From: a virus
Lineage: Duplodnaviria; Caudoviricetes
Strand: one strand, 5' to 3'
DNA length: 64,000 bases
IMG/VR virus record: IMGVR_UViG_3300050336_000170
Coordinates: 67,586-131,585 of that record
Shown piece after piece: positions 32,383 through 50,211 of this stretch. A program made the translations under genes and the position numbers. Within the stretch, counting starts at the first letter, position 1. Each line of letters begins with the position of its first letter. Under the pieces are notes generated by a model. That model saw only the letters and a program-made list of their open reading frames with translations, did no database searches and was not told where the DNA came from.

Positions 32383-33099
32383 ATGGATAAAGGTTTAGTT
32401 ACTTATGTGAAGTTAAATGCATTATTAAATCAACCTATTTTAATTGATGCGACAATTGGTTCTGTTATATGTCCAAAACTAAGTTCATTTAATGGTACGA
32501 TTATTTTATATAATAATAATGTACATAGATTTATTGAATTATATGATGAAAATACATTTAACTTTTTTGAAATATTAAAAAATGATGGAGAGTCTATAAG
32601 AGATTTTGCAGTTTTTGCTTTGAACTTTTTTAACGCTGATACGGTTAAGCTTCAAGATAGCTCTATATTCTATGTAAAAAAAATTAATGGGATAGATAAT
32701 GTAGTCAGCAGATTATATAAAGACAATATTAAACTATTTATTGATATACTTAAAGTTATACATTGGCAAGATGATTATCTTGATGGTTTTGTACCTAAAA
32801 ACAAACTTGAAGCAGAAATGTATGAGAAAGTTAAAAAAGGCAGAAAAGCTGTTAAAGAAAAAGCATCTCAAAAAGATGGAATTGGTTTGTTAGAAATTAT
32901 AAGTTCTATATGTGCTAGACACCCATCATTAAATTTAATAAATATACAAGAACTAAATTATTATCAGATTATAGATCAATTCCATAGATTAGGTTTAATT
33001 GATAGTTGGGATGTAAATATGAATGCACTTACTTCTGGTAATTTATCAGATGATGGTAAGAAACAAATAAAACATTATACAGCCAAAACAGATGATTAA
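32383..33099 (+). CDS. Conserved tail-region protein
   Basis: IISSIC...LNYYQI.DQF.RL pattern. Confidence 0.6.
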   Translation: MDKGLVTYVKLNALLNQPILIDATIGSVICPKLSSFNGTIILYNNNVHRFIELYDENTFNFFEILKNDGESIRDFAVFALNFFNADTVKLQDSSIFYVKKINGIDNVVSRLYKDNIKLFIDILKVIHWQDDYLDGFVPKNKLEAEMYEKVKKGRKAVKEKASQKDGIGLLEIISSICARHPSLNLINIQELNYYQIIDQFHRLGLIDSWDVNMNALTSGNLSDDGKKQIKHYTAKTDD

Positions 33100-33120
33100 T
33101 GTCATCTGTTTTTATTTTTT
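33085..33120 (+). terminator. Intrinsic terminator
   Basis: AAAACAGATGA/TCATCTGTTTT plus T-run. Confidence 0.6.
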
Positions 33121-33143
33121 ATAAAAGGATTGGTGAAAAATAA

Positions 33144-33941
33144 ATGAGTAAAACATTTGGCATCAAAGAAGTAATTGACTTCAATGTCGAAGAGTTTTCT
33201 GCTACTGGTCGTGGCGATATACTTTTCTCTGTCGATTATGCGACTGAAACATCTATTAATACTACTGCTGAAAGGCTTCCTATCCGTGGTGGTCAGGGCA
33301 ACTTTAAAATTATGGACTTTGACTATCAGGCAGATTGTACGTTCAATGCTACATTGCCTTTGATTGACATTGAGGCTCTTGCGGTAAAACTTGGTCGTAG
33401 TGTAACAACTGGTGCTACTACGGCAACTAAGAAGGAAATTCTTGCTGCAAGTGCTTCAAATACTATAACGCTTTCTCAGACACCTCTTGCAAATACTTTA
33501 AAGATTTACAAACTTGAGGGAGAAAGAGATTTGGGTGTTGAACAAACTGCTGGCACTCCTGCAAGTAATCCTAATGAATATAGTATTTCTACTTCTACTG
33601 TAACATTGAATGCTACCACTGCTCCAACAGGAACGCAGTTTATTGTCTTTTATGATTATACAAGTGGTACTGCTGCACAGAACATTAAGATTACTGCAAA
33701 TAACTTCCCCAGATATATTCGTATTACAGGTAGAGGTTTTGCAACGGATGACGTTACTGGTGAACTTGTTCCTGTATCGTTTGATGTTAAGAAAGCAAAA
33801 GTACAGCCTTCTTTTGAATTTACACTTTCTAGCGATAGTGCTACAACTCTTAATTTTGCTTGTGATTGTTATAGTGTCATTGATAGTGAAGGTGATAGAT
33901 TGTATGTTAATATTGTAAAACTTAATGATGAGGTTGCCTAA
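33144..33941 (+). CDS. Major tail tube protein
   Basis: FGIKEV, IRGGQGN, KAKVQPSFEFTLS; highly expressed codon usage. Confidence 0.8.
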   Translation: MSKTFGIKEVIDFNVEEFSATGRGDILFSVDYATETSINTTAERLPIRGGQGNFKIMDFDYQADCTFNATLPLIDIEALAVKLGRSVTTGATTATKKEILAASASNTITLSQTPLANTLKIYKLEGERDLGVEQTAGTPASNPNEYSISTSTVTLNATTAPTGTQFIVFYDYTSGTAAQNIKITANNFPRYIRITGRGFATDDVTGELVPVSFDVKKAKVQPSFEFTLSSDSATTLNFACDCYSVIDSEGDRLYVNIVKLNDEVA

Positions 33942-33943
33942 TA

Positions 33944-34139
33944 ATGCATTTGAAGTATACACATCCTGCTGCAATGGGATATGATACTAATAAAATATAC
34001 TTATTAGATGAAATTAAAAAACAAACATACAATTGAAATGATTAAGGTATTTTTTACTCCGATTGATTTCAAATGGGCAGATATTGAACGCAAAACAAAG
34101 AATAAAGAAAAAGAACACACAACTGAGGATAATAAATAA
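33944..34139 (+). pseudogene. Small gene frameshifted at an A6 run; paralogue of the next gene's N-terminus
   Basis: Frame 0 MHLKYTHPAAMGYDTNKIYLLDEIKK stops at 34034; +1 frame continues NKHTIEMIKVFFTPIDFKW; aligns with MAYLRYTYPAA...WFTPIDFEW. Confidence 0.7.
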
Positions 34140-34242
34140 TACTGAGGGGAGTGGAGTGGCAACACAAAAATAATCCACTCTTCTCCCCTATTTTTTACGA
34201 TTTAAATAATAATTTAAATAGAAGTTGGTGATTAAAAATAGT

Positions 34243-36717
34243 ATGGCATATTTACGATATACATATCCTGCTGCCAGTATATATGAACTTAATAAACCAT
34301 ATTCATTGGCTGAACTTAAATTAACATTATCAGATGAACTTATACAATGGTGGTTTACTCCAATTGATTTTGAATGGGGAGAAGAAGGAACTAACCCGTA
34401 TATATCATATCCACCTGATGTTTTTATTTTCCACAATACTGTGACATCTATTGGTAATGGAACACTATTAAAAGCTGACGGTAATGATGCAATAAATATT
34501 GCGTTTTCAATAAGTGATGGTGGATCGTTTACTGCTTATTTTGAAGGTCAAATTGTAAGTGGTGGTAGTTGGTATCCTGTAGATGCAATGAGTATTAATG
34601 ATAACAATATATGTACATATACATCAGACGCAACAGATGTATATCAAATACATTTAAGAGAATGGACATACATTCGTGTAAGGATATCTGCCCTGTCTGG
34701 TACATTAACTTGTATTGGTAAAAAAGTTAATTCTGATAATGTAGATATTACAGCAAGAGATATGGCATTAGACAATAGTACACAAATTAGCCAATTAGAC
34801 ACGCTAAAAACAAAGGCTAGAACATATGCAAGAAACCGGCACACTAATCCACAAAGTAAAGGAGGCGCAGTTTCTTCAAGTTCTGCATACGCCGCCTCGG
34901 AAATAACGTCAGGACTTCCAGATGGTTTTACATATGGAACTAAAACGATTAGACAATATTCAAACAACGCTGTTGTTTCTGGACTTTATTTTGGGCCATC
35001 GGACGGATCACTATCGGACGCAATACCTGTAACACCGGGTGAAGTTATTTCAATCGGACTATATATATGGACTAATGACAACCTCGGAGGAACTGGCACA
35101 ATTGGAGCGAGAGTTAGGCCGAGATATTATGATGCAAACAATGCATTAATTTCTACGGGAACAGCAATTAACAACTCTGCAATTGCGTTAAGCACATGGG
35201 AATTGCGCGTTCAAAACGGAATTACAGTTCCAGCAAATGCTACACACATGGCTATTGAGGGTATTGTTGGAGCAGTCAGCGGAGGAACATCAACAACTGG
35301 ATCAGAAACGCGCATGACCGGCGCAATCATCGTAAGCGGGACAATGATACCAGAATACGGAGATGGTACTTTTCCTTATTGGGTATGGAACGGAGCAGAA
35401 CACGCTTCAACTTCAGCAAGAATATGGCAAAGCGATGAAGAAGTTTCAATGCCTATCAAACTCGTTGCATCAGGAAATACACTTATTATAACTGAAACGG
35501 TAAATGGAAAATCTCTTGTTACCACTGCCTCAAAAGTTGGTTCAAAAAACTTTATGTTTAATTTTAGTACACTCACATACGATGGCGCATCAATATCAAC
35601 CGTTACTGACGATATACCAGCTATTAGAACGCAAATGGGAACCATTGGGGCAAACCACGGTTTTACATGTATCGGAATTTTCAATAACCCTGACAGCAAA
35701 ACAATATCTGACATTGGTTCTGTTTGGACTGATGGAATGCGCGAATATGTCTTGTTCGGACTCACATCAGATAATCGTCTCAAAATAGGCGGTTCATACA
35801 GTGGAACTCCGGTTATTTCTGAGAATGTATCTCCAATTACTAACCTTACACATGTTTCTGGTGCAACGCATACAGGTACGATTGATTATACAACGCTAGT
35901 CGCTGGCAGTTCAGCATCAAGTGATTATATGCTAACACCAGGTACAAATACGCGCCGGAAACTAAACATTTTGATGGACGGTGCTGATATTTCGTCTGAC
36001 GGAACATATTACGGACATAAACTCACGATCAGAGAAGCGTATGAAATTGTTGATTATGCCAGTTTATACGATGTGTGCAAAGCAAACATAGGCACTGCTA
36101 TAACAAGTCTTACTGTTGAAGGTTCGGTTTTGGTTCATAATATTTTTGAATGGACTGGCGCAGGACGCATCCGTGTTATCAATACTCTTGATGAACTTAA
36201 ACCAACCACATTGGAGGCAACTAACGGGATAGTGGCGGCTGCACTATCGCGCACAGGATATACCACAAGACGATACATACCGGGTACTGGAGTTGTCGGT
36301 GGGTTTAACTGGTCAAATGGTGTTGATCTTACATCGTATAGCTCAAATGTTATTACACAATCGACTGATTTGCTGTCAACTGGTCAAGTATCAGCTTTTA
36401 GCTTAGATACACTTGACCTTTCTGGTGTTGTTAATCTTGGGTTTGCTATCGGATATGAACCCAACAGGACGAGCGCGGCTTCAAGATCAGCAAGGAGACT
36501 AACAAATTCGTCTACGACACTTTGGGATATGAGGAACACAAAGAAATGTTATCCCACCTATACCACAGGCGAAGATGCTGGGTGGGGACACATTGAAGTA
36601 ACCGGATACCGCTGTTATCTTAGCCCATCGCAAGTCAGCGAGGTATTGTCTTATGCGTCAAATGCGATAGCTTCTTATGCCGCGCTTGCTACGGCAATGG
36701 ATTTGCCGATCTTATAG
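34243..36717 (+). CDS. Large mosaic virion/receptor-binding protein with carbohydrate-binding-like domain
   Basis: Beta-rich; abrupt GC rise after ~34800; GANHG motif; start probably ATG 34243. Confidence 0.7.
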   Translation: MAYLRYTYPAASIYELNKPYSLAELKLTLSDELIQWWFTPIDFEWGEEGTNPYISYPPDVFIFHNTVTSIGNGTLLKADGNDAINIAFSISDGGSFTAYFEGQIVSGGSWYPVDAMSINDNNICTYTSDATDVYQIHLREWTYIRVRISALSGTLTCIGKKVNSDNVDITARDMALDNSTQISQLDTLKTKARTYARNRHTNPQSKGGAVSSSSAYAASEITSGLPDGFTYGTKTIRQYSNNAVVSGLYFGPSDGSLSDAIPVTPGEVISIGLYIWTNDNLGGTGTIGARVRPRYYDANNALISTGTAINNSAIALSTWELRVQNGITVPANATHMAIEGIVGAVSGGTSTTGSETRMTGAIIVSGTMIPEYGDGTFPYWVWNGAEHASTSARIWQSDEEVSMPIKLVASGNTLIITETVNGKSLVTTASKVGSKNFMFNFSTLTYDGASISTVTDDIPAIRTQMGTIGANHGFTCIGIFNNPDSKTISDIGSVWTDGMREYVLFGLTSDNRLKIGGSYSGTPVISENVSPITNLTHVSGATHTGTIDYTTLVAGSSASSDYMLTPGTNTRRKLNILMDGADISSDGTYYGHKLTIREAYEIVDYASLYDVCKANIGTAITSLTVEGSVLVHNIFEWTGAGRIRVINTLDELKPTTLEATNGIVAAALSRTGYTTRRYIPGTGVVGGFNWSNGVDLTSYSSNVITQSTDLLSTGQVSAFSLDTLDLSGVVNLGFAIGYEPNRTSAASRSARRLTNSSTTLWDMRNTKKCYPTYTTGEDAGWGHIEVTGYRCYLSPSQVSEVLSYASNAIASYAALATAMDLPIL

Positions 36718-36739
36718 TACACTAATTTTACCATTAGTG
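34775..36739 (+). repeat. 24-bp direct-repeat pair enclosing the GC-richer 3' module
   Basis: 34775 ATAGTACACAAATTAGCCAATTAG vs 36714 ATAGTACACTAATTTTACCATTAG (19/24); second copy contains palindrome CACTAAT-N6-ATTAGTG. Confidence 0.8.
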
Positions 36740-36822
36740 GAGCAAAGTAAGTAAATATATTGAAGTAAATAAAATACTTGTTTGCTCGGTTTTAAAGTGA
36801 GTTTATAAAAGAGGAATATTGA

Positions 36823-37455
36823 ATGTTAAATAGCAGAGATATTAATTTGCTTCAACCAAATGTTGCTGAAAACTGTAAAAAGTTAATTGAACTTGCTGCT
36901 TTGGAAGGTTGGAAAGTTTTAGTTACTGGCACAGTAAGAGATGATGAATATCAGTTGAAGTGCTATAACGAAGGACACTCAAATGCTAAAATTCCTAGTT
37001 TTCATAGTGTCAAAGCAGGATTAGCTTTTGATATCTGTCAGAACATTAAAGGCCATGAATATGACAATAATAACTTTTGGAAAGCAGTTAGTAGAATTGG
37101 TAAACAAATGGGTTTCACATGGGGCGGCGATTGGAAATCAATTGTAGATAAGCCTCATTTTCAATGGGACGAATACGGAAAATACACAAGTAGTATGATT
37201 AGGTCAGGTAAATACCCTGATCCTATGCCTTTATATAATGAAGTTAAGGATGAAGAAGAAATGACAGGCGAAGAAATTTATAAAAAACTAACAGAATATC
37301 TAGCTACATTGCCTTGTCCAGAATGGGCAGAGGAAGAATACCAAAAAGCAATTGAAGATGGAATAACTGATGGGACTTATCCAATGCAGTTTACACCTCG
37401 TTATCAAGCCGCAATCATGGATAGTAGAACACTTAAAAAATCGAAAGGTGAATAA
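36823..37455 (+). CDS. Endolysin, M15 family (L-Ala-D-Glu peptidase-like)
   Basis: R...Q, SFH...GLAFD, WGGDW...DKPHFQ; SLH-like tail (WA...GITDGT.P...R). Confidence 0.9.
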   Translation: MLNSRDINLLQPNVAENCKKLIELAALEGWKVLVTGTVRDDEYQLKCYNEGHSNAKIPSFHSVKAGLAFDICQNIKGHEYDNNNFWKAVSRIGKQMGFTWGGDWKSIVDKPHFQWDEYGKYTSSMIRSGKYPDPMPLYNEVKDEEEMTGEEIYKKLTEYLATLPCPEWAEEEYQKAIEDGITDGTYPMQFTPRYQAAIMDSRTLKKSKGE

Positions 37456-37463
37456 TTAATAAT

Positions 37464-37841
37464 ATGTGGCAGGTTATATTGCAGAATATTACATACGTAA
37501 GTATAGCTTTTGGGATATTCTTTATATGCGTTATTGCAAATATCATAGCGAGTGTCTTTTATAATACTAATAATTTGAAGCAGGTATTTGATGTTAAGAG
37601 GTTATTTACTGGTTTTATTAAAATGATATCTGTTGGGATCACAACAGCGATACTTGCTATTGTTGCATCCTTGTTACCAATTGTAATTCAGATATTTAGT
37701 ATTGATATTCCAGACAACGTTGAAAACACATATACAGTGATCGCAATAGGGTTACTCTATTTCAACGCGATAAGAAAATACTTCACAGAAGCATTTAATA
37801 CAATTAAAGAAATACTCGAAAATAAAGAGATGATAGAGTAA
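37464..37841 (+). CDS. Putative holin
   Basis: Three hydrophobic segments; follows endolysin. Confidence 0.7.
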   Translation: MWQVILQNITYVSIAFGIFFICVIANIIASVFYNTNNLKQVFDVKRLFTGFIKMISVGITTAILAIVASLLPIVIQIFSIDIPDNVENTYTVIAIGLLYFNAIRKYFTEAFNTIKEILENKEMIE

Positions 37842-37844
37842 CTT

Positions 37845-38879
37845 ATGATAAAAGTATTATCAGAAAATAAATATATTTTCGATAAATTAGGCATTTCAAA
37901 ATGGCATGAAAGAGGATATGATGGCAGTTTAGGTTGTTCATTAACATTTGAAAGACCATACATATATGACTTTTTAAAAGGTCAAGTTGAAAACCTTTGG
38001 ACAGATCAATATCCAATTCTATCATATAGTGATCATGCCTATCAAACATTAATGGTACATTTGCAACTTGCACCAGCAAGAAAAGTATATTCTGTTGTAG
38101 ATTCAGTTCAAATTGATGGCTATGGAAACATTAGTGGATTTTTAGTTGATACACTAATACCTTGGATGCTTCAAAATAAACCCGATACTGGATTTAGAAG
38201 CAAAAACGTACATATATCTGGATTGGATTCCGCATACGATAAGATAATGTCGTTTTGTACATTCTGTAATTCAGCAGGAAATTATGATATTCAAGATTTT
38301 TCTGATTCTATTATAGATAAAGCGTGGTTAGGCATAGGGGCCATAAATAGTAATTTTAAACCAGAATCATATTCTAGTGTAAGCGAATATGTTGATTTTA
38401 GTGGTATCGCCCCATTCTATATACCTACTACTAATGGAAAAGCTATGGAGTTCTGGGGTACATCGTGTGCTGCTCCTTTTCTTTCAGGTCAAATAGCATT
38501 AGTTAATCATTTTTTCATTAAGCATATTGGTAGGTCGTTATCATTTGATGAGATGTATAATTTTATTAAATCTCATTGTCAAGATATAACATCAACAGGT
38601 ATAGGTAAAGACAATAAAACTGGATGGGGCGTATTTATATTGCCTGATCCAGATACAATTAATCCTTATGATTGGATTAATAAAGAAAGCGATGAGTTAG
38701 ATATGGCAGAAAAAGATAATGAATTTAAAACTTGGAGTTCTGAAGCTGGTCAATGGGCTACCACCAACGGCATCTTAATTGGTAATGAAATAGGAGACTA
38801 TATGTTATCTGAGTATTGTACAAGAGAACAGATGATTGTATTTCTCTATAGATTATATAAGTTAATTAAAGGAACATGA
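37845..38879 (+). CDS. Subtilisin-like (S8) serine protease with SLH-like C-terminus
   Basis: DH, SAGN, GTSCAAP, GKDNKTGWG; C-terminal W...WA..NGIL.G...TREQMIVFLYR. Confidence 0.85.
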   Translation: MIKVLSENKYIFDKLGISKWHERGYDGSLGCSLTFERPYIYDFLKGQVENLWTDQYPILSYSDHAYQTLMVHLQLAPARKVYSVVDSVQIDGYGNISGFLVDTLIPWMLQNKPDTGFRSKNVHISGLDSAYDKIMSFCTFCNSAGNYDIQDFSDSIIDKAWLGIGAINSNFKPESYSSVSEYVDFSGIAPFYIPTTNGKAMEFWGTSCAAPFLSGQIALVNHFFIKHIGRSLSFDEMYNFIKSHCQDITSTGIGKDNKTGWGVFILPDPDTINPYDWINKESDELDMAEKDNEFKTWSSEAGQWATTNGILIGNEIGDYMLSEYCTREQMIVFLYRLYKLIKGT

Positions 38880-39091
38880 GTATATAACTATCATGTTTTA
38901 TTTATCACAGAAAGATGGTGATACATAAAAATGGCAAATGGAGCATTAGGATTTATAAAGTTGAGCAAGAACACCCGTGACTTTAGTCATGGGATGAATT
39001 GCAGACATATGTTAGTATAAAACAAAAGGTAAACTGTTGAAAATACTTGACTAATTACCATACATATGTTAATCTATATCTGGTGATAAAT

Positions 39092-39493
39092 ATGGAAATA
39101 AAGTCAGGTAGAGGTTATGTATATTCAATTCAATATCATATTGTATGGTGTGTTAAATACAGACATAAAATATTAATAAATGATATTGAATTAAGATTAT
39201 TTGAAATACTTCAAAAAATAGCTGAAGATAATGGATTCACAATAATTGAATTAAACGCCGATAAAGATCATGTACACTTGCTAATAGATTGTACCCCTCA
39301 ACATTATATACCTGATATGATAAAAGCTCTAAAAGGTGTAAGTGCAAGGATATTAATGAAAGAATTTAGTGATGCGCTTAAAAAGAAATTATGGGGAGGA
39401 CATCTTTGGAATCCATCATATTTCATTGCTACGGTCAGTGAAAACACAGAAGAACAAATAAGAAATTATATTCAAAAACAGAAAGAGAGGTGA
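39092..39493 (+). CDS. tnpA: Y1 HUH transposase
   Basis: [14 protein letters not shown], catalytic YI; start corrected to ATG 39092. Confidence 0.95.
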
Positions 39494-40617
39494 ATATTGT
39501 GGAAAAATCTTATAAATTTAGAATATATCCAAATAAAGAACAACAGATATTAATTCAGAAAACTTTTGGTTGTTGTAGGTTTGTGTATAATCAATATCTC
39601 GCTAAACGTATTGAGTTATATAAAGAAGATAAATCTATTATGAATTATAATGCTTGTTCAAATGATTTGAAGAATCTTAAACAAGAATATGGGTGGCTTA
39701 AAGAAGTTGATAGTGTTTCAATTCAATCATCTCTTAAAGATTTAGATGTTGCATATCAAAATTTCTTTAGACGAGTAAAACAAGGAGATAAGAAAGTAGG
39801 ATTTCCCCATTTCAAGTCTAAAAAAGATAATCATAAATCTTATAAAACAAAGTTTACTAATGGAAATATTCAAGTGTATGATAGCAAAATAAAACTGCCT
39901 AAACTTGGATTAATCAAATGTAAAGTATCGAAACAAATAGAAGGACGCATACTTAATGTAACCATTAGTCAGAATCCAAGTGGAAAATATTTTGTAAGTG
40001 TTTGCTGTACAGATGTAGAAATACCACAATATTCATCAACTGGCACTGTAGTTGGTATAGATTTAGGTATAAAAGAATTTGCTATAACATCAGATGAACA
40101 ACATATTGATAATCCTAAGTATCTAAGACAAAGTGAAAAGAAACTTGCTAAACTTCAAAAACAGCTATCGAGAAAGCAAATTGGTAGTAAGAATAGAGAT
40201 AAAGCAAGAATCAAAGTAGCAAGGAAACATGAAAAAATTCAAAATCAAAGGAATGATTTCCTTCAAAAACTAAGTACTCAATTAATTAAGGATTATGATG
40301 TTATTTGTTTAGAAGATTTACAAGTTAAGAACATGGTTAAGAATCATAAGCTCGCAAAGTCAATTTCTGACGTATCTTGGAGTGAATTCACAAGACAACT
40401 ACAATACAAAGCTGAATGGCAACATAAAGTTATTCAAAAGATAGATACTTATTTTCCATCGAGTCAGATTTGCAGTGTATGTGGTTATCAAAACAAAAAT
40501 ACAAAAGATTTGTCTGTACGTGAATGGGATTGTCCTCAATGTGGTACTTGCCATGATAGAGATAAAAATGCAAGTATAAATATATTAACAGAAGGATTAA
40601 GGTTATTAACAGCTTAA
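39490..40617 (+). CDS. tnpB: RNA-guided endonuclease TnpB
   Basis: GIDLG, CLEDL, zinc finger, DRDKNA intact. Confidence 0.95.
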
Positions 40618-40756
40618 TCTATAAAATATGAACTGTAGGAACTACAGGGATAGCCTGTGGAGAATATGTAAGACTACAAACGGTAGCAACGTTCTGTGAA
40701 GCAGGAATCACGCGACTTTAGTCGTGTGAGGTTCAAGTCTTCCCTGCTGTCTACTT
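40555..40756 (+). ncRNA. omega/reRNA of IS copy 2 (guide ~40737-40756)
   Basis: As for copy 1; 5' end approximate. Confidence 0.65.
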
Positions 40757-40815
40757 CTATATACAGTACTTAGGAGTACGTAATATTATTATTTGTCGAG
40801 AGAAGTGAATTATAC

Positions 40816-41253
40816 ATAACAAGGAATGAAATTCTATTAGTAATTGATAACGATATTCTTAATGAATATTATGGATATTATTTTAAATTACATCCAAGAG
40901 CAAAAAAGAAACCTATCGATAAGCCATGTCACCCTTCAATAAATACTTGGATGATATTAAAAAGGATTGTAATGAATCAACTTAAACAAAAATGGAGCGA
41001 TTTTATCAAGTGGTTTATTGAGTATAAGAATATGTCAAATATATTGCTAGATAATTATGAAGCAGTGTTTACTACATACTTCCCTACTCATGCAAGGCAT
41101 GACCCAGATAATCAAACTCCTAAATTTATCATGGATGGATTGACTGAGGCCGGTTTTATTATTGATGATGATGATAAACATTGTAAATCTTTAACTTTAA
41201 AATGTGATTACGACAAGTGTAATCCAAGGTTAGAAATGCTATTTAAATATTAG
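40816..41253 (+). CDS. RusA-like Holliday junction resolvase
   Basis: HPSIN.W...RHDPDN..PKFIMDGL..AG.I.DD...PRLE; frame open upstream of track start to ATA codons at 40816/40783. Confidence 0.75.
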   Translation: MTRNEILLVIDNDILNEYYGYYFKLHPRAKKKPIDKPCHPSINTWMILKRIVMNQLKQKWSDFIKWFIEYKNMSNILLDNYEAVFTTYFPTHARHDPDNQTPKFIMDGLTEAGFIIDDDDKHCKSLTLKCDYDKCNPRLEMLFKY

Positions 41254-41319
41254 GCTGAATGGTGTGTGTGAATAGGATATGACTCCTATTCTATTTAAAT
41301 AGGAAAGGAGTTTATATTA

Positions 41320-42327
41320 TTGGAACGGATTCAAGATACAACAGAAGAGTTTAAAGAATGTAATGAATTCAATAGACAAATATATGAAGAGTTTTTAAGA
41401 AATTCTACTGAACTATCACCTGATAGTTTGTCAGCATATCGTTCTAATTTACGTATATGGTTTGTTTGGGTTAAGAATAATTTGGACGATAAACGCCAAA
41501 TTGATATTCTTGGCAGAGAGTATTTATTTTTTCAAAATTGGTTGATTAACTTAGGTCATTCTTCATCGGATATATCAAATAAAAGGTCAGCAATTAGTTC
41601 TTTAAATAATTACATAGTTTTATACTATCCAGATAAATATCCTACATTTAGGAACTTTATTACAAAGGCGATTAAAAAACCTGAAAAGGCATTTGTACAT
41701 GATAAAGTGCCATTAACGAAAGATGAATTTTCTAATTTAATCTCTGAATTAGAAAAAATGAAGAAATGGCAACATATAGCTTATTTAAAGTTTAGTTATT
41801 CAACTGGTTGTCGAAGATCAGAAGCTAGACAACTTCGTAAAGATATAATAAATACAAAACTTATTATAAAAAAGAAACTAGTTAAGAATGAACAAGGTAT
41901 TGATGAAGAAAAAGAAGTAAAGTACTATTTAACACCATTGATAAGGTGTAAAGGTAAAGGTAAAACTGGCGAAGTTCGTAAATTAAAGTTTGATGTTGAA
42001 ACTATGGATGCACTTAGAAAATGGGTAGATGAACGTGGTGAAGACGATTGCCCTTATATGTTTGTTGCTAAGAATAAAAATTCTTGTAAGCAGGTAAATC
42101 GGTCTACCTTTAATGATTGGTGTGCGGGTATTTTTTCTACTATCGTAGGCAGGAGGGTTCACCCTCATTTAACGAGGGAATCTAGGGCTACAGCAATTGT
42201 AGTCGAGGAAGGCAAGGATATATCTGCTGCACAAAAGTTGTTGGGACACAAATCATCTGAAACAACACAAATTTATGTAATTCGTGACGATTCTGAAGAT
42301 GCTGATGATTTATTTATAGATGATTAG
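41320..42327 (+). CDS. Tyrosine recombinase embedded in tail region (YomM-like)
   Basis: N-terminal SAM-like domain; TGCRRSE, KGK, HLTR, LGH, TQIY intact. Confidence 0.92.
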   Translation: MERIQDTTEEFKECNEFNRQIYEEFLRNSTELSPDSLSAYRSNLRIWFVWVKNNLDDKRQIDILGREYLFFQNWLINLGHSSSDISNKRSAISSLNNYIVLYYPDKYPTFRNFITKAIKKPEKAFVHDKVPLTKDEFSNLISELEKMKKWQHIAYLKFSYSTGCRRSEARQLRKDIINTKLIIKKKLVKNEQGIDEEKEVKYYLTPLIRCKGKGKTGEVRKLKFDVETMDALRKWVDERGEDDCPYMFVAKNKNSCKQVNRSTFNDWCAGIFSTIVGRRVHPHLTRESRATAIVVEEGKDISAAQKLLGHKSSETTQIYVIRDDSEDADDLFIDD

Positions 42328-42335
42328 GTGATTAT

Positions 42336-42824
42336 ATGCCATACGTTGACTATTCTAAGTTTAAATCAATGAAATCATCTGATTTACAATCTCTTATAAT
42401 GGATACAGATGAGGCAAAGGCAATTTTGCATCGGCAAGCAAAGCGCATGAAACAATGCCTCATAAATGCTGTTAACTTATATTACTCTAGTTATCCAAAT
42501 CCAGTCATGTATGACCGTACATACGGTCTTAGAGATTCAATCGAAATTGAAAATTCAGTCAGGGTTGAAGGAAATCAGATTATCATAGATGTCGGATTTT
42601 TTGGAGACGGTGCGTGGGGCGATTCGCTTTTCGGTCAGGGTAGAGCCTACAAACCAGATTTGATCTCGTTTGGGTGGCACACTAAGAAGCCTCTATTCAG
42701 AGATGTGTATCGTTTCGGCTGGTTTGACGGTTATGGTGATCTACTACAGATTGCAATCGATGATTTCCAGAGTGGAAATACAGAAGGAGTTCAAATAGTT
42801 TCAAAGAATTACTATAAATATTAA
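42336..42824 (+). CDS. Putative tail-completion protein
   Basis: YY.SY..P.MYDRTY.L..S motif; synteny. Confidence 0.55.
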   Translation: MPYVDYSKFKSMKSSDLQSLIMDTDEAKAILHRQAKRMKQCLINAVNLYYSSYPNPVMYDRTYGLRDSIEIENSVRVEGNQIIIDVGFFGDGAWGDSLFGQGRAYKPDLISFGWHTKKPLFRDVYRFGWFDGYGDLLQIAIDDFQSGNTEGVQIVSKNYYKY

Positions 42825-42827
42825 CTA

Positions 42828-42845
42828 ATCAAATAGCGATTTCAT
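42828..42845. repeat. 6-6-6 site
   Basis: ATCAAA-TAGCGA-TTTCAT three bases after a stop codon. Confidence 0.55.
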
Positions 42846-42894
42846 CAATAAAAATAAAATAGGGGTGCTGATTACACCCCAACTTGACTACAAA

Positions 42895-43020
42895 CTACTT
42901 TGATCTGATGGTTTTTGTTGTTGTTTTAGTTGAACTTCCATTGCTCACAGTTGTTCTAACAACAATATTTTTCCCAACAGGTTTAGCTGTAGACCTGATA
43001 GAGATTCTGCGAACTGACAT
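42895..43020 (-). CDS. 41-aa basic Thr/Ser-rich peptide (moron)
   Basis: GGAGGTGA RBS; MSVRRISIRSTAKPVGKNIVVRTTVSNGSSTKTTTKTIRSK; TTGACT-17-TAAAAT promoter; GGGGTG/CACCCC terminator. Confidence 0.75.
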   Translation of the reverse strand: MSVRRISIRSTAKPVGKNIVVRTTVSNGSSTKTTTKTIRSK

Positions 43021-43226
43021 ATGTATCACCTCCCTTCAATTGGCACTTAAATAAATTAAATAATATTAAGTGAAAGGTGAAGGGATTAACATACGACAAT
43101 TAGCAATCAACACCCAAATATATTTTACTATATTATTTCAGTAAAGTCAATATTTTACTTGTGGCAGTAGGGGTACTCCCCTACTATATTTATAAACAAA
43201 AATAAACAATAAGCGAGGTAAAGATT

Positions 43227-43529
43227 ATGACGTTCTTATATGTATTACTGGCATTTATTTGTGGCATTGTATTTGGTCTTATTGGTATACCTTGGATTTC
43301 AACAAAAGCAGATGATATATATCATGAATCTGAATTGTCAAAGTCAGCAAGGAATATTGAGATAGCAAAGAATAACGTTAAAGTAGCATTGATTAATGAA
43401 CAATTATCCGTGTCAAATGTTAATGCTGTTGGTTTTGATACAGGAAATTCAGATGAATATGAGTATTTAGAGGAGGATATTATCAGAAAGCCAATAAAAA
43501 ATAGAAAAGTAGGATTTGGAAGATGGTAA
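43227..43529 (+). CDS. Membrane-anchored hypothetical protein
   Basis: N-terminal TM segment; AVGF motif. Confidence 0.7.
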   Translation: MTFLYVLLAFICGIVFGLIGIPWISTKADDIYHESELSKSARNIEIAKNNVKVALINEQLSVSNVNAVGFDTGNSDEYEYLEEDIIRKPIKNRKVGFGRW

Positions 43530-44746
43530 AACCTTTTTTAGATACCAATATACTTCTTGATATGACAGAAGAAAATTTTCATGAACGATTTGTTATTTCT
43601 AGTAAGTCATTAGAAGAAATCGAACAGATTAAAACTAATTATAACAAGTCCGAAGAAATTAAGTATAAGGCGCGTAAAATTTCGAGGTTACTTAATACAT
43701 ATTTTGATAAATATGATGTAGCGATTATTTATCAGCAAAATTACGATATTCTTAACAATTTTAATTTGCCAGTAATAAACGATAATCTAATTTTAAGTTC
43801 TGCTTGGTTGTGGAATAAAGAAATTGAACACATTGAGTTTAATACAAACGACAACAATTGCAGACTATTAGCCGATAAAGTGTTTGATTTAGATGTTGTA
43901 TATAGTCAAAACAATTTAAATGATATAGATTATACTGGATATAAAATTGTTTCATTGAACGATGATGAAATGGAATACTTTTATAGTCACAAAAACACAA
44001 ATATTTATGATTTGAACATCAATGAATATTTATTGATCAAAAATATTAATGATGAAATTAAAGATAGATATAAATGGGATGGTAAAACGCATTTAAATAT
44101 CAAATTTAAATCGTTTAAATCTAAAACTTTTGGTGAAATAAAACCTCTTGACGAAATACAGATGTGTGTTTTCGACTCTATCACTAATAATGAGATTACT
44201 ATGCTTTATGGGAAAGCTGGTAGTGGCAAGACAACGTTGCCACTTGCCTATATAATGCAAGGTTTGGAAACACAGAAAATTAAAAAGTGTTTTATTATAT
44301 ATCATTATGAAACTCTCAAAGGTGCTAAAACTTTAGGTTTTGAGAAGGGCGATCATGATCAAAAATTATTGAATACTGGTTCATTGGGTAACATTTTGCA
44401 ATCAAAATTTTCAGATTATAAATATATTACATCTTTATTGGGAGATAAATTAGAAATTATACCCACTGCGAATATTCGCGGAGTTGAATTTGGTGCTGAA
44501 GATTTGGTTTTTGTAACTGAGTGTCAAAATATAAACCCATATACACTCAAGACTATTATTCAAAGATGTAAATCTGGGTGTAAACAGATTTATGAGGGTG
44601 ATATGTTAGAGCAATCCGATGTAAATATGAATATTAGTGGAATGAAACGGATGTTAGAAGTATTTAAAGGCTATGGTAATTTTGGATGTGTTAAATTAAA
44701 AAATAACTACAGAAGTGAAATCTGTGAGTTAGCAGATCAAATGTAA
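43523..44746 (+). CDS. phoH: PIN-PhoH (PhoH2/YlaK-like) protein
   Basis: FLDTN, DNLIL, TNDN (PIN); GKAGSGKT, IRG, ECQN, EGD..Q.D, RSEI. Confidence 0.9.
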   Translation: MVKPFLDTNILLDMTEENFHERFVISSKSLEEIEQIKTNYNKSEEIKYKARKISRLLNTYFDKYDVAIIYQQNYDILNNFNLPVINDNLILSSAWLWNKEIEHIEFNTNDNNCRLLADKVFDLDVVYSQNNLNDIDYTGYKIVSLNDDEMEYFYSHKNTNIYDLNINEYLLIKNINDEIKDRYKWDGKTHLNIKFKSFKSKTFGEIKPLDEIQMCVFDSITNNEITMLYGKAGSGKTTLPLAYIMQGLETQKIKKCFIIYHYETLKGAKTLGFEKGDHDQKLLNTGSLGNILQSKFSDYKYITSLLGDKLEIIPTANIRGVEFGAEDLVFVTECQNINPYTLKTIIQRCKSGCKQIYEGDMLEQSDVNMNISGMKRMLEVFKGYGNFGCVKLKNNYRSEICELADQM

Positions 44747-44798
44747 AGGATTTGATATTCTTGAATTTGTAATTTAAACGGAAGTGTAGGTATTAGAA

Positions 44799-45206
44799 AT
44801 GGCTGAAATAGAGTGTGTTTATCATTTTGATCATGAAAATAGATTAAAAAGAAACGAATCTGATATAACTGAAATTAAATCTGACCTGACTGATTTAAAA
44901 CTCAGTCAAGCAGAGGTCAATACTACATTTGTGACATTTATGAAGTCTATGGAAAAGAATACAGAAAGACAGACTGAAATACTTGAAACAATGAAAACAA
45001 ATCAGATTGAAACTGGTCATGAAATAAAAGATATGAAAATTGACATTGAAGTTATTAAGAAATGTCAAAATAAAAATGAAGAAAAATTAGAAAGTGTTGA
45101 TGAGAAAAGTAAAGTAGATTTTGTTTTGCTTATTAAAAATAATATCTGGAAAGTAGTTACATTTTTAATGGCTGGTTATGCAGTTTATATGACATTAATC
45201 AAATAA
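44799..45206 (+). CDS. Coiled-coil protein with C-terminal TM helix (XhlA/holin-associated-like)
   Basis: Heptad pattern and hydrophobic C-terminus. Confidence 0.6.
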   Translation: MAEIECVYHFDHENRLKRNESDITEIKSDLTDLKLSQAEVNTTFVTFMKSMEKNTERQTEILETMKTNQIETGHEIKDMKIDIEVIKKCQNKNEEKLESVDEKSKVDFVLLIKNNIWKVVTFLMAGYAVYMTLIK

Positions 45207-45236
45207 TAATTAAAGTGAGGTACTTACATAATACAC

Positions 45237-45758
45237 ATGGTTAAAACAATAAATTTTAACAATAAAGAATATAGTATTAAATATTACTTGAGTAATGATG
45301 AATTTGCTCAATTTATTGCAACTTCTATATCAAGTATACATTCACAAGATTTGCCACATTTTATAACTAGTCCACTAATTAGGGATAAGGCAATTTGTCA
45401 GTATTATGCTGACCTAAGTGAAGATGAAACTAATCAGATTATTGAGGTGTTTGATGATAATGGAATGCGATTAGTAGATGTTATCAAAAGCAATATCTAT
45501 TATCCACAACTTGAAGATATCATTCATGCAATTGATGAAGGTGTAAAAGAACTGATAAAATCGGAGATTTATAGTGATTCTCCAGATAGTAAAGTTAATC
45601 AAATATTGGATACTATTCTTGAATTTAGTAATAATTTGCCTAAGTGGGCTAAGAAGATTGACAAGTTGCTTAAACATAAAGATATAAATAAGATATATGA
45701 CTTGCTTGCTCCTGCTGTTATGAAGATTGTGAGTGGGAATAGCGTTAAGAAAGAGTAG
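45237..45758 (+). CDS. Hypothetical protein, possible tail assembly chaperone
   Basis: Last co-oriented phage core gene before tape measure once morons are removed. Confidence 0.5.
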   Translation: MVKTINFNNKEYSIKYYLSNDEFAQFIATSISSIHSQDLPHFITSPLIRDKAICQYYADLSEDETNQIIEVFDDNGMRLVDVIKSNIYYPQLEDIIHAIDEGVKELIKSEIYSDSPDSKVNQILDTILEFSNNLPKWAKKIDKLLKHKDINKIYDLLAPAVMKIVSGNSVKKE

Positions 45759-45842
45759 ATTATTTTATTTGAGTTATATATATTTTATAAGTTAACGGTG
45801 TCTCGTAAAACACCATTAACTCAGATTATTCACTATTGTTGT

Positions 45843-46820
45843 CTAAAATTTATACTTATTTAGAATTTCAATTGTATGACGTTTTCTTTCTCCGAGTAAA
45901 GTAAGAGCGTAAGAATATCGTGCGTCTATATATTTTGAGTTAAGGATTTTTTCTAGAGTGCAATCGCTACCTATATTGAGTTGTTCAAAATTCCTATCAT
46001 TTGTTACTAACCACTTGTAGGTTATTGCTCTCATGCGTCCTGTGATTTCATGATATTGTTTACATAGATGGTAAATTTGTTCATTTACCCATTCTTTGTA
46101 TTTGGTGTCAGAGTACAGGGCAACAGTTTGTGCTTTGCGTTCAAGATCATTGCCGAATATGAGTCTTAACATAGCGGTTTTAAATTCATTGAAATCACAG
46201 ATTTGAGTTGAAATGCGTTTGTGGATAAATGATGTGTCTGTATCTGGTGATTTTAAATTTGTTACGATTTGCTGAATTTGTGATTTGATATCTTCTATGG
46301 TGTAACCTAATGCTGGTATGGTATCATTAGTATAATCTTGTAGGAATCTGATATTGTCTTGGATATGTATAATATCCTGTTGGGTATCGGTCTGACGTTC
46401 TGCTAGGGCTTTTACTGCTTCCGATATGTGGTAAAGGGCTATATCTGAGGTGGAGCTAGGGGTAGTATTATAGCATCCGGTTTTTCTAATTTCTTTAATA
46501 ACTTTTCTAGCCCATGCCCTAAATATTTGTGCTGTGGCTGTCTTGGACAAAAATGTTATCTCATAGATACCGTCTTCATTAAAAAGTCTTGTATCGTAAG
46601 ACTTTCCGTCAGTACTAACCAATTTGGTTATTACTGAAAATTCCTCTGTTTTAAGATAATCGTGTCTTGATGCCAATTTATTGATTGCGATAATTGGATC
46701 AGTGTATCCCAGACATTTACCAAGTTGATCTGCTGACATGTATATGTTGTTGTTATCGTTATAAAAATCTGCATTGATACCATTGAAGTTATCGCTTTTT
46801 GATAAGACTAAATTTGACAT
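45843..46820 (-). CDS. BRO-N domain antirepressor-like protein
   Basis: QLGKCLGY, DGKSY.TRLFNEDGIYE, A..FR.W...VIKEIRKTG.Y. Confidence 0.88.
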   Translation of the reverse strand: MSNLVLSKSDNFNGINADFYNDNNNIYMSADQLGKCLGYTDPIIAINKLASRHDYLKTEEFSVITKLVSTDGKSYDTRLFNEDGIYEITFLSKTATAQIFRAWARKVIKEIRKTGCYNTTPSSTSDIALYHISEAVKALAERQTDTQQDIIHIQDNIRFLQDYTNDTIPALGYTIEDIKSQIQQIVTNLKSPDTDTSFIHKRISTQICDFNEFKTAMLRLIFGNDLERKAQTVALYSDTKYKEWVNEQIYHLCKQYHEITGRMRAITYKWLVTNDRNFEQLNIGSDCTLEKILNSKYIDARYSYALTLLGERKRHTIEILNKYKF

Positions 46821-46884
46821 ATTATTACGTTTCCTTTCAAATTAATATGATTGAATTTCTTTGAAAGGTATGTTACTATACAGT

Positions 46885-46965
46885 TGTATAGAGTGTATAG
46901 AACATACTCTCTCTAATATGGAGTATTGGTTGCTTTGCGAGGGCTGTCAATACTCCATGTTTATT
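46885..46965 (+). ncRNA. Candidate antisense sRNA between RHH and BRO genes
   Basis: TTGAAT-17-(TG)TACTAT promoter at 46851-46879; hairpin AGAGTGT/ATACTCT; terminator ATGGAGTATTG/CAATACTCCAT. Confidence 0.55.
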
Positions 46966-47101
46966 TCCCTAACTTTTTAATGTATTCACTACATGCAATT
47001 TTTATTACTGCGGCAATTGAAATGCCTTGTTCTTTTGATATTTGTTCAAGTTTGGAATACATTTCGTCAGGTATAACTATGTTTCTTGTGATATAATGCA
47101 C
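46961..47101 (-). CDS. Ribbon-helix-helix (CopG-like) regulator
   Basis: TRNIVIPDEMYSKLEQISKEQGISIAAVIKIACSEYI; GGAGG RBS; start GTG 47101 or ATC 47092. Confidence 0.8.
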   Translation of the reverse strand: MHYITRNIVIPDEMYSKLEQISKEQGISIAAVIKIACSEYIKKLGK

Positions 47102-47112
47102 CTCCAATCTAC

Positions 47113-47147
47113 AGTACCATTATAGTACCACTTCGGCACATTGTCAA
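47113..47147 (-). promoter_or_regulatory. Consensus promoter with GGTACT direct repeats flanking -10
   Basis: TTGACA-17-TATAAT; TGGTACT on each side of the -10 box. Confidence 0.8.
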
Positions 47148-47204
47148 CCATAAATAACCAACAAAAAAGACAGCCATGTTATAGCTGTCTTGTATAGTAA
47201 TTGA

Positions 47205-47759: not shown

Positions 47760-47806
47760 ATTAATACTCTTTTCAAATCACATAATAAACACTTTAAAAC
47801 TTCTAT

Positions 47807-47824
47807 ATCAAGATATGGTTTTAT
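47807..47824. repeat. 6-6-6 site
   Basis: ATCAAG-ATATGG-TTTTAT between two morons. Confidence 0.55.
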
Positions 47825-47831
47825 AATCTAG

Positions 47832-48656: not shown

Positions 48657-48740
48657 AGAAACACTCCTTTCAAATATGTAAGGAGGAAGATTATTACAAT
48701 TATAACATAAATAAAATGGCAAGTAAATACTAAATTGGTT

Positions 48741-48769
48741 TTGACAGTAAGAATTTTCCATGATATAAT
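48741..48769 (+). promoter_or_regulatory. Consensus SigA promoter
   Basis: TTGACA-17-(TG)TATAAT. Confidence 0.8.
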
Positions 48770-48809
48770 AAGTACATAAGTCCTTTACATATTTTGAAAG
48801 GATGATTTT

Positions 48810-49376: not shown

Positions 49377-49478
49377 TAAAGTTTGTCTAAATAATCCCTC
49401 CCTCCCAACAAAAATATTTGCATATTATGGCAGAAGTGTTATAATTATGGAGTATTTTGTTGTTGTTGGAGGGATAGT

Positions 49479-50186: not shown

Positions 50187-50211
50187 CAAAATGAAATGTA
50201 TACGCTATACT
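50183..50211 (+). promoter_or_regulatory. SigA promoter overlapping toxin stop codon
   Basis: TTGACA (50183-50188, contains the TGA stop)-17-TATACT. Confidence 0.85.

What the first reader, a model, noticed from the sequence alone, without database searches (positions are those of the whole stretch)
34775..36739. In-frame swappable module of a virion protein bounded by recombination-like sites
Seen: the 3' ~1.9 kb of the gene is visibly GC-richer than the phage and is enclosed by a 24-bp direct repeat (19/24 identical, four of five mismatches in the 6-bp centre). The left copy is read in frame (NSTQISQL); the right copy overlaps the stop codon and is a 7-6-7 palindrome CACTAAT-TTTACC-ATTAGTG. 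Inference: site-specific insertion/exchange of adhesin or receptor-binding domains onto a constant N-terminus, using a second site family, plausibly by one of the two tyrosine recombinases. This is host-range diversification distinct from invertase shufflons and DGRs.
Basis: partly seen in the sequence, partly recalled or inferred. Interest (0 to 1): 0.78.

Follow-up and report, generated by a model that had tools for sequence, protein, structure and literature searches.

The report
Mosaic fused phage fibre protein
A phage gene really does carry a foreign, sugar-binding tail-fibre body grafted onto a conserved front end, but this looks like the ordinary domain shuffling of phage host-recognition proteins, and the short flanking repeat said to mark a dedicated recombination system is no better than chance.

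Summary
The sequence facts hold. Gene 34243-36717 (824 aa) has a GC-richer 3' 1.9 kb, and a 24-bp direct repeat (19/24) sits at 34775 and 36714. The right copy overlaps the stop codon and forms a 7-6-7 palindrome.

The module is real. Residues 189-824 are 44-50% identical, up to the last residue, to actinobacterial tail-fibre-like proteins that have unrelated N-termini. GC change points fall at about 34815 and 36709.

The front end is a fusion of three parts that are separate genes in relatives:
- a small-protein domain (aa 1-46);
- a YomS/XepA-like domain (aa 55-163);
- the conserved N-terminal peptide of the large fibre-like gene that follows yomS-like genes (aa 164-186).

The left "site" is simply the codons at the end of that conserved peptide.

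The recombination-site reading is not supported:
- 80 equally good repeat pairs occur in the window.
- About 130 distinct perfect hairpins of this size occur in the genome.
- No third copy exists in the 131-kb genome, and no paired copies exist in IMG/VR.
- No such flanks exist in relatives.
- The two copies differ at 4 of 6 spacer positions, which argues against tyrosine-recombinase partner sites.

Verdict: an ordinary mosaic receptor-binding-type protein in an SPbeta-like phage. The one modestly interesting feature is the fusion to YomS.

The parts
33944..34139 (+). Upstream paralogue of aa 1-46 of the gene (small-protein family, P0044-like). It is split into two frames at an A6 run (34016-34021).
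   Evidence: ORFs. DNA repeats D1-D3 against 34252-34382, 75-86% identical. Protein alignment A6.
34243..36717 (+). The gene: an 824-aa fused, mosaic fibre-like protein (P0001), stop codon included.
   Evidence: No Pfam or PHROG match for the whole protein.
34243..34380 (+). aa 1-46: a domain homologous to stand-alone small proteins (P0044, 61 aa; P0084).
   Evidence: (E 1.4e-5; query residues 2-48) and alignment A6.
34405..34731 (+). aa 55-163: YomS / XepA C-terminal-like beta-sandwich domain.
   Evidence: 82 homologues, mostly stand-alone proteins of about 110 aa. A profile of 50 of them hits PDB 6i5o (YomS, E 1.4e-15) and 6i56 (XepA residues 177-278, E 3.8e-14). The closest homologue, P0003, carries PF27453:XepA in its own record.
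34732..34800 (+). aa 164-186: the conserved N-terminal anchor peptide of the large fibre-like gene that in relatives is a separate gene following the yomS-like gene. Here it is fused in frame.
   Evidence: L002, L022 and L023; alignment A5; P0102 N-terminus.
34775..34798 (+). Left copy of the 24-bp repeat. It is the codons N178-L185 at the end of the anchor peptide.
   Evidence: L002 shares a 12-nt identical stretch here, the codons for I-S-Q-L.
34807..36714 (+). aa 189-824: a horizontally acquired module of two parts.
- A jelly-roll domain (aa ~206-365, nt ~34858-35337).
- A galactose-mutarotase-like supersandwich (aa 401-824, nt 35443-36714).
   Evidence: 50% identity to P0085 (aa 190-823 against 151-800 of 801) and 44% to P0086. 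The HMM alignment starts at aa 189. GC island. AlphaFold2 model, mean pLDDT 79.7. Fold matches at Z 13-16.6. Viral-library matches are tail fibre and minor tail proteins.
36714..36739 (+). Right copy of the repeat (36714-36737), overlapping the TAG stop, and the perfect 7-6-7 palindrome (36720-36739).
   Evidence: It folds as the first of two adjacent hairpins.
36740..36797 (+). A second, longer hairpin (36740-36787) followed by GGTTTTAAAG. It is a terminator-like element between this gene and the lysis genes.
   Evidence: Fold of 36690-36830: -28.9 kcal/mol, z -2.5. It was not flagged by the strict consensus scan.
36823..37455 (+). Downstream neighbour: Peptidase_M15_4 endolysin.
33144..33941 (+). 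Upstream neighbour: tail tube / major tail protein (YomU-like).
   Evidence: phrog_2729. In L002 the equivalent gene carries PF27173:YomU_Tube. Homologues in phages are annotated major tail or tail tube protein.

Best explanation
The gene encodes a chimeric fibre-like (receptor-binding-type) protein of an SPbeta-like siphophage. Relatives encode three separate products: a small ~60-aa protein, a ~110-aa YomS-like protein, and a large fibre-like protein that starts with a conserved ~13-22-aa anchor peptide. Here all three are fused into one reading frame.

Behind the anchor peptide, the body has been replaced by a two-domain carbohydrate-binding or carbohydrate-processing module. This module comes from a higher-GC lineage, and its family is otherwise found in actinophage-type minor tail proteins and in a BppU_N-anchored baseplate protein of a Bacillales prophage.

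The exchange is the usual domain shuffling of phage host-recognition proteins. Inferred: the left crossover fell at the end of the conserved anchor, and the right boundary is simply the end of the gene. The mechanism would be homologous or illegitimate recombination.

The 24-bp repeat is a coincidence between two sequences that each have their own explanation. The left copy encodes the conserved end of the anchor. The right copy is the stop codon plus a small hairpin that precedes a terminator-like hairpin.

Shown: the domain map, the homologies, the compositional island, the arrangement in relatives, and the absence of further sites. Inferred: the recombination mechanism, virion location and sugar binding.
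For: - Module: homology to P0085 and P0086 runs from aa 189/190 to the last residues, and those proteins have unrelated N-termini.
- The module is composite. Most relatives share only aa 404-824, and the first domain is duplicated in P0086.
- Foreign composition: GC3 is 0.28-0.32 against 0.14 in the gene's own 5' part. Change points are at 34815 and 36709.
- YomS-like domain: profile match to PDB 6i5o and 6i56.
- Separate genes in relatives, with a conserved anchor and different bodies: 1264 aa in L023; 986 aa in P0102, which has a 285-aa insert directly after the anchor.
- Tail-protein context of module relatives. In L013 the gene is the last one before a weakly lysin-like gene (faint GH19 hit) and a weak holin hit. 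In Domibacillus it follows the tape-measure gene and the next, unannotated 284-aa gene, and carries BppU_N.
- Fold: supersandwich as in polysaccharide lyases, mutarotases and glycosidase accessory domains, Z 13-16.6. Viral-library matches are tail fibres.
- Repeat near chance level. Palindromes of this size are common.
- Domain mosaicism is known to be most pronounced in receptor-binding proteins (PMC10684548).
Against: - For zones fixed at the linker and the stop codon, a 19/24 match is uncommon (p 0.005-0.02). A real historical link between the two copies therefore cannot be dismissed.
- No close (DNA-level) relative of this phage was available, so the crossover points cannot be mapped to the nucleotide.
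- Presence in the virion is unproven. XepA, a relative of the N-terminal domain, is reported to be absent from mature PBSX particles (PMC6834076).
- The two in-frame fusions rest on a single metagenome assembly. An A6 run lies at the yomS/anchor junction (34720-34725), so an indel error there cannot be excluded, although both sides are in one frame as assembled.
Confidence: 0.75

Rival explanations
1. The two 24-bp copies are a genuine but inert footprint of the event that brought the module in. One route would be single-crossover (Campbell-type) integration of a circular intermediate at a short stretch of homology. Another would be template switching at microhomology. Either would duplicate the target sequence on both sides of the insert. 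The copies then drifted: the left under coding constraint, the right towards a hairpin.
For: - The copies are each other's best match in the 131-kb genome.
- They start with 9 identical bases.
- They sit within the confidence intervals of the two GC change points.
- The empirical p is 0.005-0.02 for the chosen zones.
Against: - The left copy belongs to a peptide conserved in relatives that lack the module, so its sequence needs no insertion event.
- 21% divergence over 24 bp leaves little signal.
- 80 comparable pairs exist in the window.
- Joining the left flank to the right copy gives a 12-codon tail with no similarity to the relatives (reading).
Confidence: 0.17
2. One reading: the copies are core sites of an active site-specific system, run by one of the two tyrosine recombinases, that inserts or swaps receptor-binding cassettes in frame behind a constant N-terminus.
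For: - The right copy has the 7-6-7 geometry of a tyrosine-recombinase core.
- Two Phage_integrase genes exist, at 8782-9639 and 41320-42327.
- Relatives carry different bodies behind the same anchor.
Against: - The spacers differ at 4 of 6 positions. By established knowledge, tyrosine recombinases require matching overlap regions and leave identical overlaps in both products.
- The left copy is a poor palindrome: its arms match 4 of 7 (reading).
- No third copy in the genome.
- The 7 matches to the arm consensus in IMG/VR are single hits on unrelated contigs.
- No such motif at the ends of the homologous genes in L023, L013 or L004.
- The module family's right end is everywhere the natural C-terminus.
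- The module is itself mosaic at aa ~404.
Confidence: 0.03
3. The long open frame is partly an assembly artefact or a recent pseudo-fusion. In the living phage, the yomS-like gene and the fibre gene would be separate as in relatives, with the join created by an indel at a homopolymer.
For: - An A6 run lies exactly at the junction (34720-34725).
- The neighbouring small gene is broken at another A6 run.
- Relatives have separate genes.
Against: - Both sides of both junctions are in one frame, with no stop, over 824 codons.
- The source-sample contig agrees base for base, although it is not independent.
- About one in three of the 82 YomS-domain homologues listed is a longer protein, most with the domain near its N-terminus, so such fusions are common in the family.
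Confidence: 0.05

Closest known systems
Mosaic phage receptor-binding proteins / tail fibres with a conserved N-terminal anchor and an exchangeable C-terminal body (domain shuffling as surveyed in PMC10684548 and PMC10408124)
   Same: - A conserved front end is shared with relatives.
- The body is replaced by a module found in tail proteins of unrelated phages (actinophage-type, Bacillales prophage, Staphylococcus phage Alsa).
- There is a compositional discontinuity at the join.
- The predicted fold is carbohydrate-binding.
   Different: - The gene lies beside the tail tube gene and the lysis genes, 16 kb upstream of the tape-measure and baseplate block.
- The anchor is itself fused to a YomS-like domain and a small-protein domain.
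YomS (SPbeta) and XepA (PBSX), PDB 6i5o / 6i56 (PMC6834076)
   Same: - aa 55-163 match the YomS / XepA C-terminal domain family by profile.
- The gene neighbours tail genes, as yomS does, and lysis genes, as xepA does.
   Different: - YomS is a stand-alone 118-aa protein.
- XepA carries its extra domain on the N-terminal side.
- Here the domain is near the N-terminus of an 824-aa protein with a fibre-type body.
- Pentamer formation is untested.
Tyrosine-recombinase core sites (lox, FRT, dif, att cores) and integron cassettes
   Same: The right copy has 7-bp inverted arms around a 6-bp spacer and lies at a gene end.
   Different: - The spacers of the two copies do not match.
- The left copy is not a good palindrome.
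- There is no site family, no array, no adjacent recombinase with attI and promoter, and no alternative arrangements.
BppU-anchored baseplate proteins of lactococcal-type siphophages (Pfam BppU_N)
   Same: The Domibacillus homologue of the C-terminal domain uses a BppU_N anchor. This shows the same body mounted on a different anchor.
   Different: The window's protein has no BppU_N domain. Its anchor is the YomS-associated peptide.

Membership tests
YomS / XepA C-terminal domain family (PF27453; PDB 6i5o, 6i56) | Sequence-profile similarity over the ~105-aa beta-sandwich domain | tested here: met
   A profile of the window's domain plus 49 homologues hits YomS at E 1.4e-15 (profile positions 5-108 on chain residues 15-117) and XepA at E 3.8e-14. 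A single-sequence search of the whole protein found nothing.
YomS / XepA C-terminal domain family (PF27453; PDB 6i5o, 6i56) | Pentameric disc assembly | not tested
   No oligomer prediction was run. The pentamer is known only from the crystal structures (PMC6834076).
YomS / XepA C-terminal domain family (PF27453; PDB 6i5o, 6i56) | Genomic position beside tail structural genes in SPbeta-like phages | tested here: met
   The gene follows the YomU-like tube gene. The same order is seen in L002, which carries YonD, YonB, YomX, YomW, YomV and YomU families. A YonO-type RNA polymerase lies at 12917-15439.
Mosaic receptor-binding / tail-fibre protein with exchangeable body | Relatives share the N-terminal part and carry unrelated bodies | tested here: met
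   L023 (1264 aa), P0102 (986 aa) and the window share only the anchor peptide. Only four relatives were found, two of them cut by contig ends.
Mosaic receptor-binding / tail-fibre protein with exchangeable body | Body homologous to tail proteins of unrelated phages | tested here: met
Mosaic receptor-binding / tail-fibre protein with exchangeable body | Part of the virion and binds a host surface receptor | not testable with these tools
   This needs virion proteomics and binding assays. The fold is of a sugar-binding type, but a shared fold does not show function.
Tyrosine-recombinase recombination sites (partner or product sites) | Inverted-repeat arms around a 6-8-bp overlap in both sites | tested here: not met
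   The right copy is a perfect 7-6-7. In the left copy the arms match only 4 of 7.
Tyrosine-recombinase recombination sites (partner or product sites) | Identical overlap (spacer) sequence in the two sites | tested here: not met
   The spacers agree at 2 of 6 positions. The requirement itself comes from established knowledge of lambda Int, Cre, Flp and XerCD.
Tyrosine-recombinase recombination sites (partner or product sites) | Sites recur (other cassettes, other genomes, empty sites) | tested here: not met
   There is no other copy at up to 6 mismatches in 131 kb apart from one 6-mismatch chance hit. IMG/VR gives 7 single, unrelated hits. None occurs at the gene ends in relatives.
Tyrosine-recombinase recombination sites (partner or product sites) | Alternative arrangements (excised circle, empty site) exist | tested here: inconclusive
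   Only one public run holds the DNA. It is probably the source sample and is kept as contigs, which drop rare variants. No joints were seen.
Integron gene cassette | intI with adjacent attI and promoter, and an array of cassettes each ending in an attC | tested here: not met
   There is a single pair of sites, no array, and the nearest integrase gene is 4.6 kb downstream in the same orientation.

The most novel reading that the evidence does not exclude
The two 24-bp copies are functional or recently functional sites of a dedicated system that plugs fibre bodies in frame behind the YomS-linked anchor of SPbeta-like phages. That would be a cassette-type host-range switch distinct from shufflons and diversity-generating retroelements (DGRs). 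A milder novel reading, much more likely, is that the fusion acts as a 'Rosetta stone': it would show that the so far function-less YomS protein is the docking adaptor for a mosaic fibre.
Probability: 0.04. Interest if true: 0.75.

Novelty: new member of a known kind. Interest (0 to 1): 0.24.

Why it matters
As a recombination system it does not hold up, so it adds no new mechanism of host-range variation.

What remains useful is twofold.

1. It is a clean, well-delimited example of a fibre body crossing between very different phage lineages, from a high-GC actinophage type to a 30%-GC SPbeta-like phage from an anaerobic digester.

2. It gives a functional hint for YomS. Structures exist for YomS and XepA, but no function is known (PMC6834076). 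In relatives the yomS-like gene is always followed by a large fibre-like gene with a conserved N-terminal peptide. In this phage the two are one polypeptide, and many family members carry C-terminal extensions. This suggests that the YomS disc is an adaptor holding a variable fibre. That is testable by virion proteomics and cryo-EM.

Tried and rejected
- **Close relatives for nucleotide-level mapping: none found.** Searches were megablast and tblastn against phage records, IMG/VR with the N-terminus, the C-terminus and the tube protein, and the 5.8-billion-protein index.
- **Degenerate DNA pattern for the anchor peptide in IMG/VR.** It gave four hits, all an unrelated tape-measure-like gene.
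- **Search of 401 genomes in the class of the Domibacillus genome.** It gave only 4 YomS/XepA-like hits (open frames of 159-284 aa). They were not examined further, so nothing bearing on the junction came of it.
- **Public reads.** One run, probably the source and kept as contigs only, holds the stretch. No joints, variants or alternative contigs were seen across 33000-38000. This says nothing about rare excision.
- **The look-up of encoding contigs.** The contexts of P0004, P0005, P0006 and P0102 could therefore not be read. P0085 was not on record.
- **IS200/IS605 ends as an explanation for the palindrome: rejected.** The two copies span 18008-19802 and 38952-40736 and do not reach 36720.
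- **The palindrome as a consensus intrinsic terminator: not flagged.** The scan did not report it. The longer hairpin behind it is the better candidate.
- **Foldseek against the PDB.** It gave only low-TM matches (0.2) to beta-galactosidase and GH38. The wide VIA-align search gave the domain-level assignment.
Full report
**The observation**

The gene runs from 34243 to 36717 on the + strand and encodes 824 aa.
- The left 24-mer is at 34775-34798 and is read in frame as N178 to L185.
- The right 24-mer is at 36714-36737 and covers the TAG stop at 36715-36717.
- The copies agree at 19 of 24 positions, with mismatches at positions 10, 15, 16, 17 and 19.
- The right copy extends into a perfect 7-6-7 palindrome at 36720-36739.
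- The 3' 1.9 kb is GC-richer (0.43 against 0.32). This is not only amino-acid composition: GC3 rises from 0.14 in the 5' part to 0.28-0.32, against 0.13-0.25 in 18 other genes of the window.
- Likelihood change points are at 34815 (interval 34739-34890) and 36709 (interval 36684-36756).

**Is the repeat more than chance?**

Barely.
- The window contains 80 direct pairs of 24-mers with at least 19 matches at spacings of 200-3000 bp.
- In the 3.2 kb around the gene, the repeat finder lists this pair as one of 28 families of similar quality.
- If the two zones are fixed beforehand (80 nt at the linker, 80 nt at the stop), random zone pairs from the same genome reach 19/24 in 0.5% of trials, and reach the same ungapped score in 1.9%. 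The zones were chosen after seeing the repeat, in a window with about 70 genes.
- The scan listed 179 perfect hairpins with stems of at least 7 bp and loops of 3-8 in the 131-kb genome. Some hairpins are listed twice, so about 130 are distinct. They are about twofold enriched just behind stop codons.
- Neither copy has another relative in the whole 131,585-bp record. The next-best match has 6 mismatches.

**What the phage is**

- The window is the last 64 kb of an IMG/VR provirus record of 131.6 kb.
- The closest relative of the gene's N-terminal domain lies on a contig whose genes carry the SPbeta families YonD, YonB, YomX, YomW, YomV and YomU_Tube.
- The window also has a YonO-type RNA polymerase (RdRP-family hit) and a tape-measure gene at 52753-56790.
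- Its tube-protein homologues occur in Geobacillus virus E3, the Lactococcus 949 group and large Bacillus siphophages.

It is therefore a large SPbeta-like siphophage with about 30% GC. The only public run that holds it comes from an anaerobic digester.

**Domain map of the protein**

1. *aa 1-46* match stand-alone small proteins (P0044, 61 aa, alignment A6). A second copy of this small gene lies just upstream (33944-34139) and is broken into two frames at an A6 run.
2. *aa 55-163* belong to a family of mostly stand-alone proteins of about 110 aa (82 hits). A profile of 50 of them matches YomS (PDB 6i5o, E 1.4e-15) and the C-terminal domain of XepA (6i56, E 3.8e-14).
3. *aa 164-186* are the key to the left "site". 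In three related contigs the yomS-like gene is a separate 110-111-aa gene. It is followed, overlapping or after about 25 nt, by a large gene. That gene's first residues align with aa 164-185 of the window's protein, and an aspartate, an arginine, an alanine and a serine are invariant (alignment A5).
   - A further protein, P0102, starts with the same motif.
   - Behind this anchor the bodies differ. L023 has a 1264-aa protein. P0102 has 986 aa, with a 285-aa insertion directly after the anchor relative to L023. The window has the module.
   - L002 shares the residues I-S-Q-L with the window, and even 12 identical nucleotides there.
   - The left copy of the repeat is thus the coding sequence for the conserved end of an anchor peptide.
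4. *aa 189-824* are the module.
   - P0085 (Aeromicrobium, 801 aa) aligns at 50% identity from aa 190 to 823, up to its own last residues, and has an unrelated N-terminus.
   - P0086 aligns at 44% from aa 189 and carries the first domain twice.
   - An HMM built from six relatives, including 75 residues upstream of the module, begins its alignment at aa 189.
   - The right boundary of the module is therefore the natural C-terminus of this protein family and needs no site.

**The module is itself composite**

- Eleven of the seventeen hits in the protein index cover only about 61-66% of the 647-aa query, and two more cover 60%. In the one checked by pairwise alignment (P0002) this is aa 404-821. 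The Staphylococcus phage Alsa_3/4 genes (aa 407-797) and a Domibacillus gene (aa 359-798) also share only this C-terminal part.
- The Domibacillus gene follows the tape-measure gene and the next, unannotated 284-aa gene, and begins with a BppU_N baseplate anchor.
- In an actinophage-like contig, the homologue is the last gene before a weakly lysin-like gene (faint GH19 hit) and a weak holin hit. This mirrors the M15 endolysin that follows the gene here.
- An AlphaFold2 model of aa 178-824 (mean pLDDT 79.7) shows a jelly roll (aa ~206-365), a disordered linker and a large beta domain (aa 401-824).
- The large domain matches the galactose-mutarotase-like supersandwich of PL26 and PL4 rhamnogalacturonan lyases, aldose epimerases, GH174 fucanase and the C-terminal domains of beta-galactosidases. 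Z is 13-16.6, rmsd about 3.5 A, over 210-260 residues.
- In the viral structure library the best matches are tail fibre, distal tail and minor tail proteins.
- A role in binding or cutting a cell-surface polysaccharide is inferred from this, not shown.

**Testing the recombination-site idea**

- The arm consensus of the two copies was searched in IMG/VR. It gave seven single hits on unrelated contigs, several of them giant-virus bins, and none paired.
- No similar motif lies at the start or end of the homologous genes in L023, L013, L004, L022 or L002, even allowing 4 mismatches.
- Two tyrosine recombinases do exist, at 8782-9639 and 41320-42327, but neither is adjacent to this gene. A related phage, Geobacillus virus E3, also has an integrase a few genes behind its tube gene, so the gene's presence there is not special to this locus.
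- Mechanistically, tyrosine recombinases exchange strands across the 6-8-bp overlap. They need that overlap to match between partners, and both products inherit the same overlap. This is established for lambda Int, Cre, Flp and XerCD (my knowledge, not tested here). The two copies differ at 4 of 6 overlap positions, and the left copy's arms match only 4 of 7.
- The palindrome folds as a small hairpin directly followed by a longer hairpin (36740-36787) and a T-run. The 141-nt region folds better than shuffles (z -2.5). The most economical reading is an RNA-level 3' end element between the fibre gene and the lysis genes.

**What could not be done**

- No phage close enough for nucleotide-level comparison was found.
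- The single run holding the DNA is probably its source and is stored as contigs. The absence of joints across 33000-38000 says nothing about rare excision.

**Conclusion**

That is the well-known mosaicism of phage receptor-binding proteins (PMC10684548).

| Reading | Probability |
|---|---|
| Ordinary mosaic fusion | 0.75 |
| Repeat is an inert footprint of the insertion event | 0.17 |
| Join is an assembly artefact or recent pseudo-fusion | 0.05 |
| Active site-specific cassette system | 0.03 |

The evidence for a dedicated site-specific system is a single 19/24 repeat at chance level. Its left half has a coding explanation, and its right half is a common kind of hairpin.

The feature worth remembering is the in-frame fusion of a small protein, a YomS-like domain and a fibre. 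Together with the conserved gene order in relatives, and the roughly one in three family members that are longer proteins, most with the domain near their N-terminus, it suggests that YomS-like proteins are adaptors for variable fibres.

Noticed in passing
window 33944-34139 (+): A small gene paralogous to aa 1-46 of the fibre gene is split into two frames at an A6 run (34016-34021). Losing one A, or a +1/-2 shift, would give one protein of about 66 aa like P0044. It could be a pseudogene, a homopolymer error or programmed slippage. It is followed by a GC-rich inverted repeat at about 34146-34190.
   Followed up: partly
window 18008-19802 and 38952-40736: Two copies of an IS200/IS605-type element, 78% identical. 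Each has a Y1 transposase (39047-39493; Pfam Y1_Tnp) and a TnpB / Cas12f-like gene (39490-40617). One copy sits between the lysis genes and a tyrosine recombinase inside the tail region.
   Followed up: partly
window 41320-42327 (+): A tyrosine recombinase gene lies inside the tube-to-tape-measure interval. Geobacillus virus E3 also has a site-specific integrase a few genes after its tube gene (L012).
   Followed up: no
window 33941-52753: About 19 kb separates the tail tube gene from the tape-measure gene. It holds non-structural genes: an endolysin, a weak S8-protease-like gene, an IS element, an integrase, PhoH/PIN, and a BRO-N gene on the opposite strand. This is an unusually interrupted tail module.
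   Followed up: no
window 12917-15439 (+): An 840-aa protein with a Pfam RdRP-family hit, consistent with a YonO-type single-subunit RNA polymerase of SPbeta-like phages.
   Followed up: no
window 775-1836 (-): A GmrSD_N (type IV restriction-like) domain protein at the left end of the window.
   Followed up: no
P0086 (database protein): The first (jelly-roll) domain of the module family is tandemly duplicated in this 960-aa relative, and each copy starts with the same short motif. The domain is therefore a self-contained unit that multiplies within fibres.
   Followed up: partly
YomS-domain family: About one in three of the 82 representative homologues is a longer protein (171-881 aa). Most have the domain near the N-terminus with unrelated C-terminal extensions. 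A few have it at the C-terminus, as XepA does.
   Followed up: partly
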